A stretch of 62,881 bases of DNA, the filler included, from Rhabdomonas costata (lineage: Eukaryota): NCBI GenBank assembly GCA_019059605.1. It is 42 parts of 42 records of this genome, joined end to end, with 100 filler letters (N's around TTAATTAATTAA, not from the genome) between each part and the next. Parts side by side here need not be neighbours in the genome. Positions count along the whole stretch, not along the records: positions 35,996 to 37,395 come from JAHMHO010017058.1; positions 37,496 to 38,895 come from JAHMHO010017059.1; 40 more parts are not named here. One strand, written 5' to 3'. The position numbers were made by a program, and so were the translations under genes. This document shows, piece after piece, positions 34,497 to 62,450 of this stretch (within the stretch, counting starts at the first letter, position 1; the number at the start of each line of letters is the position of its first letter). The notes below the pieces were generated by a model. It was given only the letters and a program-made list of their open reading frames with translations. It did no database searches and was not told where the DNA came from.

Positions 34497-35186
34497 GGGT
34501 TTTTGGCCTTGTGGCTGCCTGTACAGCGCCTCGTTCACTCGCAGCGCTTCCGCCCTTTTCCGATCCACCTCCACGGCAACCACAAGGTCAAAAAACCCCA
34601 AAAGAGGAAATGCATTTCCTCCCGCGCATGCCATACCGTCCAGGGCAACCCCTGACCGTGCGCATTCTGGGGCAATATGCCCCACAAACTCCGCCAGTAG
34701 GGAGGCCATTCTACTGGCGTGAATCTCGCCTGTGACAGACATGCTCGCCTCGGAATCCAGGAGTACCTGCCGGCGCAGGGCGAACGGCAGGGAAGGGAAG
34801 AAGTGGTCTCGCAGCTTCCCTGCAGCCCTGTCGAACCCCAAAGCAGCGCCTTCAAAGAACACCGGCGGGCGGGCCACCCAGTCCACCAGAGCACAGGCCA
34901 CCGCCTCACACTCCTGCGGGGAACGGAACCGCAGCACACAGCAGCCGTCACGAACATGCCTGTGATGGTTGAGCTCCACGGAGACAAAGGGGACGGGGAT
35001 GTCGAAAGGAGAGGCAGAGCCCACGCTGCGGTGGTACTCCCCGCAGACCATCCGTACGCCTTCTTGGATCACCTTGGCAAGGCCCCAGCCCGTGGAGGGG
35101 AACGGCACCCCGCGAGCAAGCAGAGCCCTGAACTCATGCTGTGCCTCAACAGAAACTTCCTCGGCTTCTGCGCTACCTTCAGCCAT
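34497..35186 (-). CDS. TGS-like RNA cap guanine-N2 methyltransferase, 3'-truncated
   Basis: LDSEASMSVTGEIHASRMA...LDGMACAGGNAF...VVAVEVDRKRAEALRVN fits the Tgs D.E..SVT.E..A / D...GGN / AVE.D pattern. Confidence 0.78.
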
Positions 35187-36249
35187 CAGAGGCACGAAGA
35201 TAAGTAGCTGCGAAAGCCGTTCAGTCCAGGACATCAGGAAAGTGCTGGGCGGAGAGAACAAGGGCTTCCAACAAATGTATTCAGCTCCGGTAAGGTAATG
35301 TGTGATATGCGCTCGACATTTTTGCGCATGAAAAGCGCATATTGTCATTTTGTGCGCGATCGTGCCAGCCCCCACGCCGCCTCCGAGCTGATTGTCCCTG
35401 TGCAGCGGTAGATTATGTGGACGACGATCCATAGCCCACCTGTAGATGCAACGTAACGATTTGTCAGAAACCCTTGAGGGCATTCACATCGAAACCACGG
35501 ATAATGAATGTAAACAAAAGTCAAACGTCATTCTATTATATCCATTCCTCCAGAATATGGTAAGAAGGGGAATCAACAACGACGGAGAAGGCCAAGGGCC
35601 ATGAGTACAAGTCTTCCAGAGGTTTGCACAGATGTGGTGAAAAGCGCAATCCCCGCAGAAAAGGCACACGCGGAGTGAAGCCTCCGAAATCCCCCCACCA
35701 CTAACACACACACGCAGACACTAAACATCAGCCAACACAGAGGAAAAAGGAGAGAAACAAACCCAACCCTAACGCATCACAAGCGCGAAAATGATGACAC
35801 TAAGTAATCATCAATCATAAGTACAAGAACACGTACCCGAGGCATTGCCAAAAAATCACAACCCACACCCTCCTCTATGGTTCAGGCCCAAACAANNNNN
35901 NNNNNNNNNNNNNNNNNNNNNNNNNNNNNNNNNNNNNNNTTAATTAATTAANNNNNNNNNNNNNNNNNNNNNNNNNNNNNNNNNNNNNNNNNNNNGGTTT
36001 TTGGGACCAACAGAAAAGTGCGCGTACCCGAAAGCAGGGACATCTGCGAATCTGCGAATATAGTCAAGACGTGCCATGTCGCAAGGAGCTCACCAAAAGG
36101 CAAACAAAGGGACCGGTCAAGTGGATTTTATCGGTTGGAGGGACACGTGGAAACCTTGCAAGCGGACTGGCAAAAGTAGCCCGCGGCGCATGTGTACGCG
36201 TTGACGTCGCCACTCGACCCGAAAAAAAAAAATTCTGATGTGACCCCCA

Positions 36250-36664: not shown

Positions 36665-37595
36665 AGGAACATTGCGTGTGGGACTCCGTCACCCCGGACC
36701 CCCCTACAGATGCAACTCGTCCTAACCCCCTGTTTTTCTCAATACTTTGTCCTATAGCCCTTTTAGTTTACTTCTGCCGGTTATATATACATAAACGTAG
36801 AATCATCACAGTAACAATGCCATGTAGGAATGACAATGGTATACATAACCACACTACGGCTAACCATCGGTAGGAACATTGGTAGTAGAAGCACCTCCAA
36901 CCGTACCACAACTCCTAGCCACCACCCAAACACCAACCTCCTAACACAACCAACACCCACAGTACCAACTTACTCCACGACTCACAACAACCCACCACAA
37001 CACACCAACAGTCCATGTCCCAAACACCCTCCAACCACATAGCACAAACCAAACCACGCAACACTGACACTACACCTCCCACATCACTCCATAGCCAAAA
37101 CCACAACGGTGAAACCAACGCCATGTACAACCATACAACACATGACACAAAAAAGAACCAATGACACAACTTCCAACCAATATAACCAAACTCTGAAACC
37201 ATAACACCATTTCAGTCTCATACCCACACAACAGACACACATTCCAACTCCAAGTAAATAGCTACAACACAACAACCAATATTTGCGCAACTCTACTCCA
37301 AACACACTGTAAAAGATACACAATACTCTACACTATAAAATGCAAGAATACACACGCACACGAGAAAAAAAGCCCATAAATCAAAATCAAAGACCNNNNN
37401 NNNNNNNNNNNNNNNNNNNNNNNNNNNNNNNNNNNNNNNTTAATTAATTAANNNNNNNNNNNNNNNNNNNNNNNNNNNNNNNNNNNNNNNNNNNNGGGTT
37501 TTGGTAGAGAAGGGAAGGAGGAAGGGAAGCAAGAGGCAATGCAACACTTTCTAGGGAAGGAGGAAGAGGGAGGAAGAGTTGTCGAATCGAGCTGC

Positions 37596-38036
37596 TCAAA
37601 ATGCAGCAGAAGCAGACCGCCGGTGCCTTGCAGGAGCAGCTGGAAAAGGAGCATGGACCTGGGTCGGAATCGGTTCCGGAGTCGGTTCCGGAGCCGGCGC
37701 AGGGACAGGAGCTGGAGTCCGTAGCCACGGATTAGCGGTGCGCGGCCGGCCTTCATTTAGAAGGCGAATCGTCTGCATCGCATGCGCTTTTGCATCAGAG
37801 CGCCGAATAGCACATCCAACGCAAAATACATGATATCGTTGTTTGGGGCTTACACACGTGCAATTTGTCGCTTCTCGCTTTCCCCAGCATTTCTGGCAGA
37901 AGCCACGATTTGGCAGTGTCTCGTTGCCGCAGAAGCAAGTGCCGGGAATGTAGGGGCGGACTGTGGGCACGATGGTCGGCCGGAAAGTGGCCGCGAAGGT
38001 CACTGGAGCGGTCGGGATGACGGCGGAGAAAGACAT
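37596..38036 (-). CDS. Hypothetical Cys-rich (zinc-finger-like), Pro-rich ORFan of 146 aa, probably viral
   Basis: Intronless ATG-to-stop ORF with CFC/CQKC/CTC/CVGC pairs; AAAATTGA lies about 106 bp upstream. Confidence 0.65.
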   Translation of the reverse strand: MSFSAVIPTAPVTFAATFRPTIVPTVRPYIPGTCFCGNETLPNRGFCQKCWGKREATNCTCVSPKQRYHVFCVGCAIRRSDAKAHAMQTIRLLNEGRPRTANPWLRTPAPVPAPAPEPTPEPIPTQVHAPFPAAPARHRRSASAAF

Positions 38037-38141
38037 TGCAAGAAGCTTAGCGGGCTGCGGGCTTATGTATGCAAAAGAAGAGTCTTAATTCGCATACAGT
38101 GATCAGCTTAGTTATATTGGACTAATCAAATAAAATAATTT

Positions 38142-38149
38142 TCAATTTT
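38142..38149 (-). promoter_or_regulatory. Mimiviridae-type early promoter motif AAAATTGA
   Basis: TCAATTTT on the + strand, in AT-rich context and oriented toward the ORF starting at 38036. Confidence 0.65.
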
Positions 38150-38329
38150 TATAAAGTACATATGATAAATATACAAGTAGTAAAACTTATATTGTAGAGA
38201 TCTAATACAATGTCATTATGAGATAATGAAAAAGAAAGATAACAACATAGGACGAATAAGAACTTATACCTGTTTAACATCTAATCTGTTCAATCATTTC
38301 AAGAGATATAACAGACAAAAGTTTACTAT

Positions 38330-38488
38330 GGGGCTGTGGAAATAAGAGAAATTAGACCATGAAGGACCATATGTTAAAAAGTATATAAACACTCATTTTT
38401 AATATCTTATTGTTGATACAAAAAAACTTATTTTTAGTATTCAATATCTAAAAATAAAATTTATAAAAATCCTTATTTCCACAGCCCC
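38330..38488. mobile_element. 159-bp MITE-like element with 17-bp TIRs
   Basis: GGGGCTGTGGAAATAAG (38330-38346) and CTTATTTCCACAGCCCC (38472-38488), flanked by TAT on both sides. Confidence 0.7.
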
Positions 38489-38523
38489 TATATATTTTTA
38501 TCTAATAATGTCGTCTTACTGTG

Positions 38524-38559
38524 TTATAATTATTTAAACAATAATTTAAATAATTATAA
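38524..38559 (-). terminator. AT-rich 15-bp perfect hairpin at the 3' end of RPB5 (Mimiviridae hairpin-rule type)
   Basis: TTATAATTATTTAAA-caataa-TTTAAATAATTATAA overlaps the stop codon. Confidence 0.7.
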
Positions 38560-38895
38560 TTTAACAACAACACGTCTATAATATATAGAATGACCTGATA
38601 AACTACTATTTCGTATAATTCTACATACAGATCCTGCTTTCATATTATAATATCTTGCAACTGGATCACTGGTAAATATTTTAGGCATTTGTTTTTTTTC
38701 AATATTATATTCTTTCATTATTTGTTGACTTTCTTTATCAGTTAATACAATATGTTGAGGTACAAGTACATGATCTACTATATTTATCATAAATTCTCTT
38801 TCTAAAAATATTTCAGTATTACGGAATTTTTCTCTTATTGAATCAGCTATTTTAGGATTAATATCATCAACAATTAATATAAGATAATTACTTTC
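38554..38895 (-). CDS. RPB5: DNA-directed RNA polymerase subunit RPB5, giant-virus (Mimiviridae-like) type, 5'-truncated
   Basis: Open from the contig edge: ESNYLILIVDDINPK...NTEIFLEREFMINIVDHVLVPQHIVL...MPKIFTSDPVARYYNMKAGSVCRIIRNSSLSGHSIYYRRVV. Intronless and extremely AT-rich. Confidence 0.92.
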   Translation of the reverse strand, partial: ESNYLILIVDDINPKIADSIREKFRNTEIFLEREFMINIVDHVLVPQHIVLTDKESQQIMKEYNIEKKQMPKIFTSDPVARYYNMKAGSVCRIIRNSSLSGHSIYYRRVVVKL

Positions 38896-59982: not shown

Positions 59983-61382
59983 GTTTCTGGTACAACACCC
60001 TCAATGCCTCCACATTGGCATCCAACGTATCCGTGTTGACCAAAATGTCATCCACATACGCCCATGTCATCTCTCTCAAGTCTTCTAAAATGAAATCCAT
60101 TGTTCTCTGGAACGTGGATGGGGCATCACACAACCCAAAGGGCATGACTCTGAATTTGAACGAACCGTACCTCGTCTTGAATGCCGTCCTCTACACATGC
60201 TCTGGGTGAATGCGGATCTGATGAAATCCAGCATGCAAATACAGCTCCTAGAACCACTTCGCCTTTCCCGCGTGACCAATCATTTTGTCAATTCGTGGTA
60301 AAGGGTACGCATCTGTAACCGCAATTGCATTCAACGGTCTGTAATCAACACACAGCCGCAACTTACCGTTGGTTTTTGGAACAAAAAGCACACCTGCACC
60401 ATAAGGCGAGGTTGCTGGCTCTATAAAACCAAGCTCCTTGAGACTCTTCAGTTGCTTCAGCAATTCCTCATCTTCCGCAGGGGACATTCGGTACAGCCTC
60501 TGGGATGGTACCTTACTGTCAGGCTTCAAATCAATCCTGTGGTCAGTCCTCCTTGAAGGGGGTAACCCTCCGGGAACTGACGCTGGAAAGATGTGCGCAA
60601 ATTATCAATTGAGCCTCTGAATCTCTGGAGTTGTTGGTAACACCGCACAAGGGGGGCCACAAATTCTGTGGTCCACCTCTTTGATCAAATTTTCTTCCTC
60701 CTTTCGAGGCGAATCTCGCAACTTTCTTTTGACCTTCCACTTAGGCTCCTGAGCCCTAGCTATGGCTGGCTGGTCTTGCTTGGTTGGAACAACCTCTTCC
60801 ACCTCCAGTGCAGAAACCACGACCTGTGTATGGGACTGTGGATTTGTTTCCGCACCGTGTGGAATGGTCTCCAAAAAGACTCCAACACTCTGGACGTTGG
60901 GACTGCTTGGGACGTCGCCTCCACCCCCCCCTGATATTACGAGCTCGATGGGTAAAGACATCTGAACGTTCTGCGGTGGAGCAATCAACGGGTTCACCGG
61001 GGCAACTTCCCCTTGATCTGCCTCCAACATTCCTGTGGTGGGGCATGTGATTCGAAATGACTCCACCACTGGAAGCGCCTGGATGTCGTACATTCTTCCT
61101 CCTCTCCACACATTGACATTTCTGCGCTTCCAGTCAATCTGCGGTTGCAGCCTCGTTAAAAATGGATAGCTCAGCACCACTGGGATTGCAGTTTTGATCG
61201 CTCTCAAAAACAATTTTATCGGCATGGTACCCAACCTTCCGACAACTCGGACGAAGTGCGTCACGGGAAGTTCTTCCCCGTTCGCAACGCTCACTGTAAG
61301 CTTCTGCTGCAACGGGTACCTTTGCAAACGAAATCTCTGGAACAACTCCTGACTTGTAAACGAGTCTGAAGCTCCAGAGTCC
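59983..61382 (-). mobile_element. Ty3/gypsy LTR retrotransposon pol (aspartic protease + RT) with stops and a frameshift
   Basis: DSGAS...VSVANG...IDW; SPYGAGVLFVPK...LRLCVDYRPLN...YPLPRID; MPFGLCDAPSTFQR...YVDDIL. Confidence 0.95.
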
Positions 61383-61899
61383 NNNNNNNNNNNNNNNNNN
61401 NNNNNNNNNNNNNNNNNNNNNNNNNNTTAATTAATTAANNNNNNNNNNNNNNNNNNNNNNNNNNNNNNNNNNNNNNNNNNNNTTTTGTTGGTGCTATTCA
61501 ATGCTAAAGAGGGATGTCTCGTCGGTATCTGCGCTTGGTGTGTTTGGCGCGCTTGAGGGAAGACGGCTGGGATTTTAGCGCGCTCGGCGGCAAGAGCACC
61601 CAGACGGTCGTCATCCAGACCAACGTCATGCCTTCAGCGCTGCCCCCAGCATTGTCCGGGCTGTGTGACCTGTTGGCCATCTATGAGGGTGGCGTTGTCT
61701 ACGTGCGGGCAATACTGGTCACGGTCCTGTGCCAGGCGGCGTAGGTCCAGCAAGAACAGCACGTTAGTGGCCGCTTCCGCTGCCAGGAGCCATTGCAGGC
61801 GCTGGCGGCCAGGAATGTCTGTGACTGGAGCGGCGTTTGGCCCGTATGGGCAGGTGTCAGTGATGTCTTTAGAATATGCGGCAAGCCCTCCAGCAGGCG

Positions 61900-62450
61900 T
61901 CGATGAGTGAGACAATAGAATGGGCGCGCCGGCAGACTTTGGTATTGGGTATATCCAGTGGACGCAAAACATGCACCAGCCTCCGGATCCATCGCATGTC
62001 CGCCGCGTCATGTGTCTGTCCGTCGTCTGGGGGCAGGTCCAGGCCTCGGCCCCATACAAGGCAATGGGTCGGACAATCGAGTGGTACATCAAAGCTTTCA
62101 GCCTGGTCGGAAGTTTGGCGGAGTCTCGAATGTGCAGAAGTTGTGCCAAACAGATGCCGACGAAATTTGTGAGGTCCTGGTAAGAGTTCAGGTGCGTAGG
62201 TGCCTAGGTGCGTAGGAGGCGATGTCTAAGATATGTTGGGTCGGAGGGCATGTGCGTGAGCTTTGTCCTCGGGTTGATGTTAATGCCAGATCTTTTGCGG
62301 GTGATTCGAACTGTACCATGCGCGATGGGAAAGCCGGCATGTTCCGTTCGATAGGTGCTATGTAATTTCCCGATGGATGGTCAATGGGTCCGGTTGGGCC
62401 AGGTCGCAATTCCCTGCAGCGCCTTCCCGTGGATGAACAAAGGCCGAAAA
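61900..62450 (-). mobile_element. Degenerate LINE (RTE-like) post-RT remnant
   Basis: KLPTRLKALMYHSIVRPIALYGAEAW is the typical K...Y...VRP.LLYG.E.W motif. Confidence 0.7.

What the first reader, a model, noticed from the sequence alone, without database searches (positions are those of the whole stretch)
37496..38895. Giant-virus (Mimiviridae-like) contig inside a protist assembly
Seen: an intronless, very AT-rich RPB5, unlike the GC-rich spliced genes on other contigs. It has a perfect 15-bp hairpin at its stop codon, and an AAAATTGA motif points at the next ORF. Established: Mimiviridae encode RPB5, use AAAATTGA as an early promoter and end transcripts at palindromic hairpins. Inference: three independent signatures point to a possibly undescribed giant virus infecting, ingested by, or endogenised in this protist, which could give a virus-host link.
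Basis: partly seen in the sequence, partly recalled or inferred. Interest (0 to 1): 0.85.

Follow-up and report, generated by a model that had tools for sequence, protein, structure and literature searches.

The report
Giant-virus RPB5 fragment joined to host-like DNA
One 1.4-kb contig carries the tail end of a giant-virus (Mimiviridae-like) RNA polymerase subunit gene joined directly to GC-rich, host-like DNA, a known kind of find that may mark a viral insertion or may be an assembly error.

Summary
The window is 42 contigs of about 1.4 kb joined by spacers. The finding is one of them.

**Confirmed**
- The minus strand 38895-38554 holds the C-terminal 113 codons of RPB5 (PF01191, E 7.5e-29). 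GC is 24% and GC3 is 5%.
- A perfect 15-bp hairpin overlaps the stop codon. None of 1000 shuffles reached 14 bp.
- One AAAATTGA sits at 38149-38142. A single copy is not above chance.

- The contig is bipartite. 37496-38062 is 58% GC and host-like in 3-mer make-up. 38063-38895 is 24% GC.

**Origin of the RPB5**
- Its best relatives are on IMG/VR giant-virus contigs, at 55% identity. Three of the four records searched carry NCLDV capsid genes.
- A profile test puts it in that clade: 154.5 bits against 120.6 for eukaryotes, with 45 of 45 leave-one-out controls correct.
- Trees agree, but AU tests do not reject other placements.

**Verdict**
- This is real giant-virus-derived DNA of a Mimiviridae-like lineage.
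- Whether the junction is an integration site or a chimeric contig could not be tested, because no reads or whole assembly were available.
- It is a known kind of thing, of modest interest.

The parts
38554..38895 (-). 3' half of an RPB5 gene: 113 codons plus TAA stop at 38556-38554. The 5' part is lost at the contig end.
   Evidence: Translation without stops. PF01191 E 7.5e-29 over residues 37-109. 55% identity to RPB5 on IMG/VR contigs L005 and L007. All invariant and nearly invariant columns of alignment A1 are kept. Terminal branch 0.32 against a median of 0.38. GC3 5.3%.
38524..38559 (-). Perfect 15-bp A/T-only hairpin with a 6-nt loop, overlapping the RPB5 stop codon. Candidate transcript-end or polyadenylation hairpin of the Mimiviridae type.
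   Evidence: I5. 0 of 1000 shuffles with a stem of 14 bp or more. RNA fold -18.2 kcal/mol, z -4.35. 9 of 16 clade relatives have a perfect stem of 9 bp or more within -30..+90 of their RPB5 stop. In the closest relative, L005, it also spans the stop.
38313..38503 (.). Inverted-repeat element. The 17-bp perfect arms GGGGCTGTGGAAATAAG (38330-38346 and 38472-38488) are 125 nt apart and extend to about 34 bp at 85% identity. Function unknown.
   Evidence: (I3). 0 of 500 mononucleotide shuffles reached 17 bp. DNA fold z -4.26. No exact copy of the arm in IMG/VR.
38149..38280 (-). 43-codon hydrophobic ORF. It may or may not be a gene. Its TAA stop overlaps the first A of AAAATTGA.
   Evidence: Not searched for relatives on its own. 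The tblastx of this stretch against the viral loci found nothing significant.
38142..38149 (-). Single AAAATTGA, the Mimiviridae early-promoter octamer.
   Evidence: 0.23 expected by composition in the AT-rich part. In 16 clade relatives the motif occurs 69 times against 36.7 expected, and 31 of the 52 copies with a downstream ORF lie 26-59 nt before its ATG.
38063..38095 (-). ATG 46 nt after the motif, which is the commonest spacing in relatives. It opens only 10 codons and ends in TAA at 38065-38063, exactly where the composition switches. Possibly the stump of a viral gene cut at the junction.
   Evidence: Read. Spacing compared. An ATG in that range is expected by chance about one time in three (my estimate from base composition).
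38040..38100 (.). Composition switch, the junction: about 58% GC to the left and about 24% GC to the right. The best estimate of the break is 38062/38063.
   Evidence: Sequence.
37496..38062 (.). GC-rich (57.7%) part of the contig with no recognisable gene. It includes the ORF 37596-38036 (-), 146 aa, which overlaps ORFs on the other strand.
   Evidence: 3-mer profile within the range of the other 41 contigs: 10 of 123 control fragments are at least as far from the pool. ORF146 has no Pfam family, no relatives and no Atlas match, with recognition 1780 and best score 0.77.

Best explanation
The right 833 bp of the contig (38063-38895) are a piece of the genome of an AT-rich giant virus of the Mimiviridae-like (Imitervirales-type) RPB5 clade.

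**Anatomy on the minus strand**
- The last 113 codons of the viral RNA polymerase subunit RPB5.
- A hairpin over its stop codon, of the kind at which these viruses end and polyadenylate transcripts.
- About 400 nt with an inverted-repeat element and a doubtful 43-codon ORF.
- An AAAATTGA early-promoter octamer, and 46 nt later an ATG whose frame stops after 10 codons.
- At that point the sequence turns into 58%-GC, host-like DNA.

**Reading I commit to**
- This is a fragment of giant-virus DNA inserted in the genome of the eukaryote that was sequenced, that is, an endogenous viral fragment. The junction cuts a viral gene just after its promoter.
- In that state the viral signals are not read by host machinery, so the fragment is most likely silent.

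**Shown and inferred**
- Shown: the identity of RPB5, its kinship to viral contigs, the hairpin, and the composition break.
- Inferred: that the break is a true integration site and that the GC-rich side is host DNA.
For: **Viral origin of the AT-rich part**
- PF01191 matches with E 7.5e-29.
- The best relatives in 1.84 billion representative proteins reach 122 bits, and nearly all of the top hits have AT-rich make-up and the N-terminal 'TNxIKML' motif. The best solved eukaryotic RPB5 scores 79.8 bits.
- Identity to IMG/VR contigs of 168 kb and 57 kb is 55%.
- Capsid_NCLDV is found in 3 of the 4 clade records that could be searched.
- Profile scores are 154.5 bits for the viral clade, 120.6 for the labelled-eukaryote profile, and 121.9 and 104.4 for two other viral groups. 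Leave-one-out controls were correct 45 times of 45.
- In the careful tree the query sits in a 23-row group with support 83/86, made of 14 viral rows and 8 metagenome rows. None of the 8 labelled eukaryotes is on its side of the 94/86 split.
- A clade member is labelled 'Megaviridae environmental sample'.
- The hairpin is significant (0 of 1000 shuffles) and shared with relatives.
- The motif, its spacing and the family traits fit the literature: passages of PMC6163669 and PMC4402537, and RPB5 in the Mimiviridae core list of PMC3620924.

**Insertion rather than free virus**
- The AT-rich and GC-rich parts lie on one contig with a sharp break.
- The GC-rich part has the 3-mer make-up of the other contigs.
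- The viral piece sits in a contig no longer than its 41 neighbours, which are all about 1.4 kb. I infer from this that the viral DNA is not in excess over the host DNA.
- Endogenous giant-virus elements of 25-35% GC in a protist genome whose GC differs significantly are on record (passage of PMC12455990).
Against: **Against a firm viral placement**
- The AU tests do not reject placing the query elsewhere. With the 6 labelled eukaryotes the p value is 0.108. With the eukaryote-holding side of the careful tree it is 0.223.
- In the 114-row set the constrained tree scored 16.4 log-likelihood units better than the quick free tree. Trees on 113 columns are therefore weak.

**Against an insertion**
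- No read evidence for the junction could be obtained. A chimeric contig would look the same.
- The RPB5 frame is intact and not fast-evolving. That fits a free virus or a recent insertion better than an old relic.
- The GC-rich side has no gene or repeat that ties it to the host. There are no matches within the window and no homologues.
- No other viral gene lies in the window: 706 ORFs from viral loci hit only RPB5.
- AAAATTGA is a single copy at chance level.
- The ORF-free stretch after RPB5 is not unusual for relatives: 8 of 92 gaps are 490 nt or longer. It is therefore no sign of decay.
Confidence: 0.45

Rival explanations
1. Chimeric contig. DNA of a free, ingested or contaminating giant virus was present at low level in the sample. 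The library or the assembler wrongly joined a viral read path to host DNA near 38063. The viral identity stands, but there is no physical link to the host genome.
For: - The RPB5 frame is intact, with a normal branch length.
- The break is abrupt and no host feature lies at it.
- The assembly is highly fragmented, with contigs of about 1.4 kb. My inference is that low depth or amplification makes mis-joins more likely.
- Nothing in the GC-rich part ties it to a gene.
Against: - No repeat is shared between the two parts or with other contigs that could explain a mis-join.
- A virus replicating in the culture would be expected to give long, deep contigs rather than a 1.4-kb one. This is inference and could not be tested.
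Confidence: 0.3
2. The whole contig is viral. The GC-rich 567 bp are a foreign insert inside the virus genome, either a captured host gene or a mobile element. The AAAATTGA then acts as the promoter of the GC-rich ORF 37596-38036.
For: - The motif and the ORF are on the same strand, with the ATG 105 nt downstream.
- In relatives, 5 of the 52 motif copies with a downstream ORF lie 91-135 nt before an ATG.
Against: - The usual spacing is 26-59 nt, seen in 31 of 52 copies.
- An ATG at 46 nt opens a frame that is cut after 10 codons.
- ORF146 has no relatives and low recognition, and it overlaps ORFs on the other strand. That is what GC-rich non-coding DNA gives.
- A 34-point GC jump inside a giant-virus genome would be exceptional (my knowledge).
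Confidence: 0.08
3. Cellular RPB5. The AT-rich part comes from the nuclear or nucleomorph genome of an AT-rich eukaryote, either a contaminant or a symbiont, and not from a virus.
For: - The AU tests do not exclude the eukaryote-holding side.
- Atlas rows mix eukaryote and virus labels.
- RPB5 is universal in eukaryotes.
Against: - The profile test favours the viral clade by 34 bits, and none of the 8 labelled eukaryotes prefers that profile.
- Alignments to eukaryotic RPB5 mostly start later in the query: residue 19 for the best solved structure, 10 for animal RPB5, and 16-27 for others. For two labelled eukaryote hits the start is 21-27. For nearly all top hits it is residue 2-6.
- A hairpin lies over the stop, as in the viral relatives.
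- The closest labelled sequences are viral.
Confidence: 0.07

Closest known systems
RPB5 (subunit 5) of the virus-encoded RNA polymerase of Mimiviridae / Imitervirales. Listed as a conserved gene cluster of the family in PMC3620924 (passage read).
   Same: - C-terminal Rpb5 domain.
- AT-rich coding sequence.
- Groups by profile and tree with IMG/VR giant-virus contigs and with a 'Megaviridae environmental sample' protein.
- Hairpin at the 3' end.
   Different: - At most 55% identical to any relative found.
- Only the last 113 residues are present.
- No named isolate sequence (Mimivirus, CroV and the like) could be placed in the tree, so the family label rests on one database label and on promoter and hairpin traits of the relatives.
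[quoted passage not shown] An example is the 86-311 kb elements of 25-35% GC reported in PMC12455990 (passages read).
   Same: An AT-rich NCLDV gene next to DNA with the host's higher GC content. It carries an RNA polymerase subunit gene of viral type.
   Different: - Only 833 bp are seen, not a region of tens to hundreds of kb.
- No hallmark genes are linked.
- There are no signs of erosion in the one gene present.
- The junction is unverified.
Mimiviridae transcription signals: the AAAATTGA early promoter and the 'hairpin rule' for transcript 3' ends. Source: passages of PMC6163669 and PMC4402537. The original papers PMC1239944 and PMC2704430 were not held.
   Same: - A palindromic hairpin at the gene's end.
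- The octamer directly after an upstream stop codon and 46 nt before an ATG, the commonest spacing in relatives.
   Different: - Prevalence, which is the defining property, cannot be judged from one gene and one motif copy.
- The frame after the motif is only 10 codons long.

Membership tests
RPB5 / RpoH (Pfam PF01191) | Match to the Rpb5 C-terminal domain above the curated cut-off | tested here: met
   99.8 bits against a cut-off of 23.5, covering the full profile 1-73. 21 solved RPB5/RpoH chains match.
RPB5 / RpoH (Pfam PF01191) | Two-domain form with an N-terminal domain, as in eukaryotes and NCLDV and unlike archaeal RpoH | tested here: inconclusive
   The gene is cut at the contig end. 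Residues 1-36 before the C-domain align to the end of the N-terminal part of 200-aa relatives, with alignments from residue 2-6. PF03871 itself was not matched.
Nucleocytoviricota (giant-virus) genome fragment | The gene groups with NCLDV homologues rather than cellular ones | tested here: met
   Profile test 154.5 against 120.6 bits, with 45 of 45 controls correct. The careful tree has 0 of 8 labelled eukaryotes on the query's side. However, the AU tests are not significant: p 0.108, 0.717 and 0.223.
Nucleocytoviricota (giant-virus) genome fragment | Linked hallmark genes (MCP, PolB, A32 ATPase, VLTF3) | not testable with these tools
   The contig is 1.4 kb, no whole assembly is held, and no other viral-like gene lies in the window. 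The relatives' records do carry capsid genes: 3 of 4.
Mimiviridae-like (Imitervirales) | High prevalence of AAAATTGA in promoter regions | tested here: inconclusive
   One copy against 0.23 expected in 833 bp. The clade relatives show the trait: 69 copies against 36.7 expected, with 31 of 52 lying 26-59 nt before an ATG.
Mimiviridae-like (Imitervirales) | Hairpin-forming palindrome at the 3' end of genes | tested here: met
   A 15-bp perfect stem over the stop codon, with 0 of 1000 shuffles reaching it. Only one gene end could be examined.
Mimiviridae-like (Imitervirales) | Phylogenetic placement with named family members | tested here: inconclusive
   The only named member in the clade is 'Megaviridae environmental sample' P0180. 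No isolate genomes were available. MutS_V was found in 0 of 4 relatives' records, which are only 6-28% complete.
Endogenous viral element (GEVE-type insertion) | Viral DNA contiguous with host DNA, supported by reads | not testable with these tools
   Contiguity is seen in the contig and the GC-rich side is host-like in 3-mers.
Endogenous viral element (GEVE-type insertion) | Signs of erosion (stops, frameshifts, transposon invasion) | tested here: not met
   The RPB5 frame is intact over 113 codons with a normal branch length. The ORF-free spacer is within the range of relatives. The 10-codon stump at the junction is the only hint.

The most novel reading that the evidence does not exclude
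The contig captures the true integration breakpoint of a Mimiviridae-like giant virus in the nuclear genome of a poorly sampled eukaryote. Two long ORFs of that eukaryote tried here have no relatives among 5.8 billion proteins. The viral RPB5 is still intact, which would mean a recent insertion. It would give a direct virus-host link for a viral lineage that is at most 55% identical in RPB5 to anything in the databases searched.
Probability: 0.4. Interest if true: 0.55.

Novelty: new member of a known kind. Interest (0 to 1): 0.3.

Why it matters
Giant-virus sequences inside eukaryotic assemblies are one of the few ways to link uncultured giant viruses to hosts. If the junction near 38063 is real, this small contig is direct evidence that a Mimiviridae-like virus has entered the genome of this organism. 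The rest of the assembly would then be worth screening for a larger element. If the junction is a chimera, the fragment still shows that such a virus was in the sample. Either way it is one more case of a well-documented phenomenon, resting on 833 bp and half a gene.

Tried and rejected

**Searches that found nothing**
- GC-rich ORF146: no Pfam family, no relatives, nothing in the Atlas.
- A 329-aa ORF of a neighbouring contig, tried in order to name the host, has no relatives. Of the 9 long ORFs of other contigs scanned against Pfam, only a PHD finger matched.
- The AT-rich spacer and the GC-rich part against 84 viral loci gave only low-complexity matches (tblastx and blastn).
- The contig against the rest of the window gave no shared sequence.
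- 706 ORFs of the viral loci against the window hit only RPB5.
- The 17-nt repeat arm has 0 matches in IMG/VR.
- No tRNA was found on the contig and no Rfam family in the window.
- MutS_V, tried as a Mimiviridae marker in the relatives' records, matched 0 of 4. Those records are fragments.
- Low coding density, tried as a sign of decay, was not unusual.

**Trees and tests**
- The quick 114-row tree proved unreliable, because a constrained search found a better tree. I replaced it with a careful 56-row tree.
- Rows were chosen by hand from the 154 proteins and 84 loci. Near-duplicates and most unlabelled metagenome hits were left out.
- None of the AU tests was significant.

**Literature**
- The original promoter and hairpin papers were not held.
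- No supplements were opened. The gene tables of PMC12455990 might say whether RPB5 is part of known endogenous elements.

**Readings rejected**
- A nucleomorph or AT-rich-eukaryote origin of the RPB5 was considered and largely rejected on the profile test.
Full report
**What the window is.** The 62,881 bases are 42 separate contigs of 1395-1401 bp joined by N/TTAATTAATTAA/N spacers. The finding covers exactly one contig, 37496-38895. No whole assembly is held for this window. Everything below therefore rests on this contig, its 41 neighbours and public collections.

**The observation.**
- The minus strand from 38895 to 38554 is an open frame of 113 codons ending in TAA. It starts at the contig end, so only the C-terminal half of the gene is there.
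- It matches the Pfam Rpb5 C-terminal domain over the full profile (E 7.5e-29, 99.8 bits), and it matches 21 solved RPB5/RpoH chains.
- The fragment is 23.9% GC with 5.3% GC at third positions.
- A perfect 15-bp inverted repeat with a 6-nt loop (38524-38538 and 38545-38559) overlaps the stop codon. In 1000 dinucleotide-preserving shuffles of the AT-rich part, none gave a stem of 14 bp or more and 2 gave 13 or more. As RNA it folds at -18.2 kcal/mol, z -4.35.
- AAAATTGA occurs once in the contig, on the minus strand at 38149-38142. The window holds 7 copies against 4.1 expected, and 13 of 100 shuffles had as many. In the AT-rich part, 0.23 copies are expected from composition. The motif by itself carries little weight.

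- The contig is bipartite. In 100-nt windows the GC content is 48-67% up to about 38045 and 18-32% from about 38100 onward. Overall, 37496-38062 is 57.7% GC and 38063-38895 is 23.6%.
- This AT-rich stretch is the only one in the whole window below 33% GC.
- The 3-mer profile of the GC-rich part lies within the spread of 567-bp pieces of the other contigs: 10 of 123 are at least as far from the pooled profile. The AT-rich part lies beyond all 123.

**Is the RPB5 viral?**
- *Database hits.* In the word-indexed collection of 5.8 billion proteins, 4 relatives scored, the best at 54% identity. In the search of 1.84 billion representatives the best hit scored 122 bits at 51% identity. Nearly all of the top hits have AT-rich amino-acid make-up and an N-terminal 'TNxIKML' motif. 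The best solved eukaryotic RPB5 scores 79.8 bits, and its alignment starts at query residue 19.
- *Viral contigs.* In IMG/VR, 4 loci and then 80 loci encode relatives, many on contigs named GVMAG. The best two, at 55% identity, lie on contigs of 168 kb and 57 kb. Of the four records of this clade that could be searched, three carry Capsid_NCLDV genes, with 7, 3 and 3 matches.
- *Labels.* Cluster look-ups gave eukaryote labels for Vicia, Cannabis, Neoechinorhynchus, Balamuthia, Gloeochaete, Strombidium, Neoconidiobolus and one EukProt transcript. They gave one viral label, 'Megaviridae environmental sample'.
- *Trees.* A quick tree of 114 rows put the query on a side without labelled eukaryotes. 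A constrained search later found a tree 16.4 log-likelihood units better, so I do not rely on the quick tree. In a careful tree of 56 hand-picked rows on 113 columns, the query sits in a 23-row group with support 83/86, made of 14 viral and 8 metagenome rows. That group lies inside a 34-row side with support 94/86 that holds none of the 8 labelled eukaryotes.
- *AU tests.* None rejects moving the query. With 6 eukaryotes the p value is 0.108, and with the 22-row eukaryote-holding side it is 0.223.
- *Profile test.* This test separates better. Against profiles built from the query-homologous region, the query scores 154.5 bits for the IMG/VR 'TNxIKML' clade, 120.6 for the labelled eukaryotes, and 121.9 and 104.4 for two other viral groups. 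In leave-one-out runs, 45 of 45 sequences scored best with their own group, and none of the 8 eukaryotes preferred the clade profile. The groups were drawn partly from the tree, which is a caveat.
- *Conclusion.* I take the viral origin as likely, about 0.9, but not proven by phylogeny alone.

**Is it Mimiviridae-like?**
- A review lists the AAAATTGA early promoter and 3' hairpins as traits that strengthen assignment to the Mimiviridae (passage of PMC6163669). Another paper states the same signals and notes that Pithovirus also follows the hairpin rule (passages of PMC4402537). RPB5 is in the family's conserved gene list (passage of PMC3620924).
- In 16 loci of the query's clade, AAAATTGA occurs 69 times against 36.7 expected. 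Of the 52 copies with an ORF of at least 80 codons downstream, 31 lie 26-59 nt before its ATG, and the commonest distance is 46 nt.
- Nine of these 16 loci have a perfect stem of at least 9 bp within -30 to +90 of the RPB5 stop. In eight of them, at most 5% of random windows of the same locus do as well. In the closest relative the stem also spans the stop codon.
- The relatives therefore show the family's signals, and the query shares the hairpin. No named isolate genome could be brought into the comparison.

**Anatomy after the gene (minus strand).**
- Downstream of the hairpin lies an inverted-repeat element. Its 17-bp perfect arms (38330-38346 and 38472-38488) are 125 nt apart and extend to about 34 bp at 85% identity. 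None of 500 mononucleotide shuffles reached 17 bp. The arm has no exact copy in IMG/VR.
- Next comes a 43-codon hydrophobic ORF (38280-38149), whose stop overlaps the first base of AAAATTGA.
- Forty-six nt after the motif there is an ATG at 38095. Its frame runs for 10 codons to a TAA at 38065-38063, and the GC-rich DNA begins at the next base. This looks like a viral gene cut just after its start. An ATG in that range would occur by chance about one time in three (my estimate), so this is a consistent detail and not a proof.
- The GC-rich ORF 37596-38036 starts 105 nt after the motif, overlaps ORFs on the other strand, and has no Pfam family, no relatives and no Atlas match. I do not take it for a gene.

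**What the junction means.**
- *Insertion (about 0.45).* A true insertion of viral DNA in the host genome fits several points. Both parts lie on one contig, the GC-rich part has a host-like make-up, and the contig length is ordinary. There are also published endogenous giant-virus elements of 25-35% GC in a protist genome whose GC content differs significantly (passage of PMC12455990).
- *Chimera (about 0.3).* A chimeric join would look the same in a single contig. The intact, normally evolving RPB5 frame fits a free virus at least as well.
- *Decay.* There is no sign of decay beyond the 10-codon stump. ORF-free gaps of 490 nt or more make up 8 of 92 gaps in the relatives.
- *Other viral genes.* None lies in the window: 706 ORFs from the viral loci hit only RPB5.
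- *Less likely readings.* A GC-rich insert inside a viral genome driven by the motif gets about 0.08. A cellular RPB5 from an AT-rich eukaryote gets about 0.07.

**The host.**
- The other contigs are 41-61% GC, and one encodes a PHD finger.
- Two long ORFs tried had no relatives.
- 'Eukaryote' is supported. 'Protist' and 'spliced genes' were not tested.

**Verdict.**
- The sequence features are real. The RPB5 fragment is giant-virus-derived and Mimiviridae-like, with at most 55% identity to anything found.
- This is a new member of a well-known kind of find.
- The most interesting point is the virus/non-virus junction inside the contig. Only read-level data or PCR can tell whether it is biological.

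Noticed in passing
window 38313-38503: An inverted-repeat element sits in the AT-rich spacer. Its 17-bp perfect arms contain the only G-rich run of that stretch (GGGGCTGTGG) and lie 125 nt apart. 0 of 500 shuffles reached 17 bp, and the arm has no copy in IMG/VR. It could be a small mobile element or a structural signal.
   Followed up: partly
window 1-62881: The window is a chain of 42 contigs of nearly equal length (1395-1401 bp) joined by artificial spacers. Neighbouring 'genes' across spacers are therefore not linked.
   Followed up: yes
window 34497-35483 (-) and 37596-38036 (-): Two long ORFs on GC-rich contigs have no relatives among 5.8 billion proteins. Either they are not genes or the organism is poorly represented in databases.
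   Followed up: partly
window 60605-61381 (-) and 61634-62203 (-): The ORFs look like retroelement pieces by eye, with a DSGA aspartic-protease-like motif. Pfam gave no match at E 0.001.
   Followed up: partly
loci L001-L054 (16 clade loci): In the uncultured relatives, AAAATTGA peaks sharply 39-59 nt before start codons, most often at 46 nt. The Mimiviridae early-promoter rule therefore seems to hold across this metagenomic RPB5 clade.
   Followed up: partly
P0011 (Vicia faba protein): This plant protein matched the query in two stretches, which suggests a tandem or duplicated Rpb5 C-domain. Its high total score is therefore not comparable with the others.
   Followed up: no
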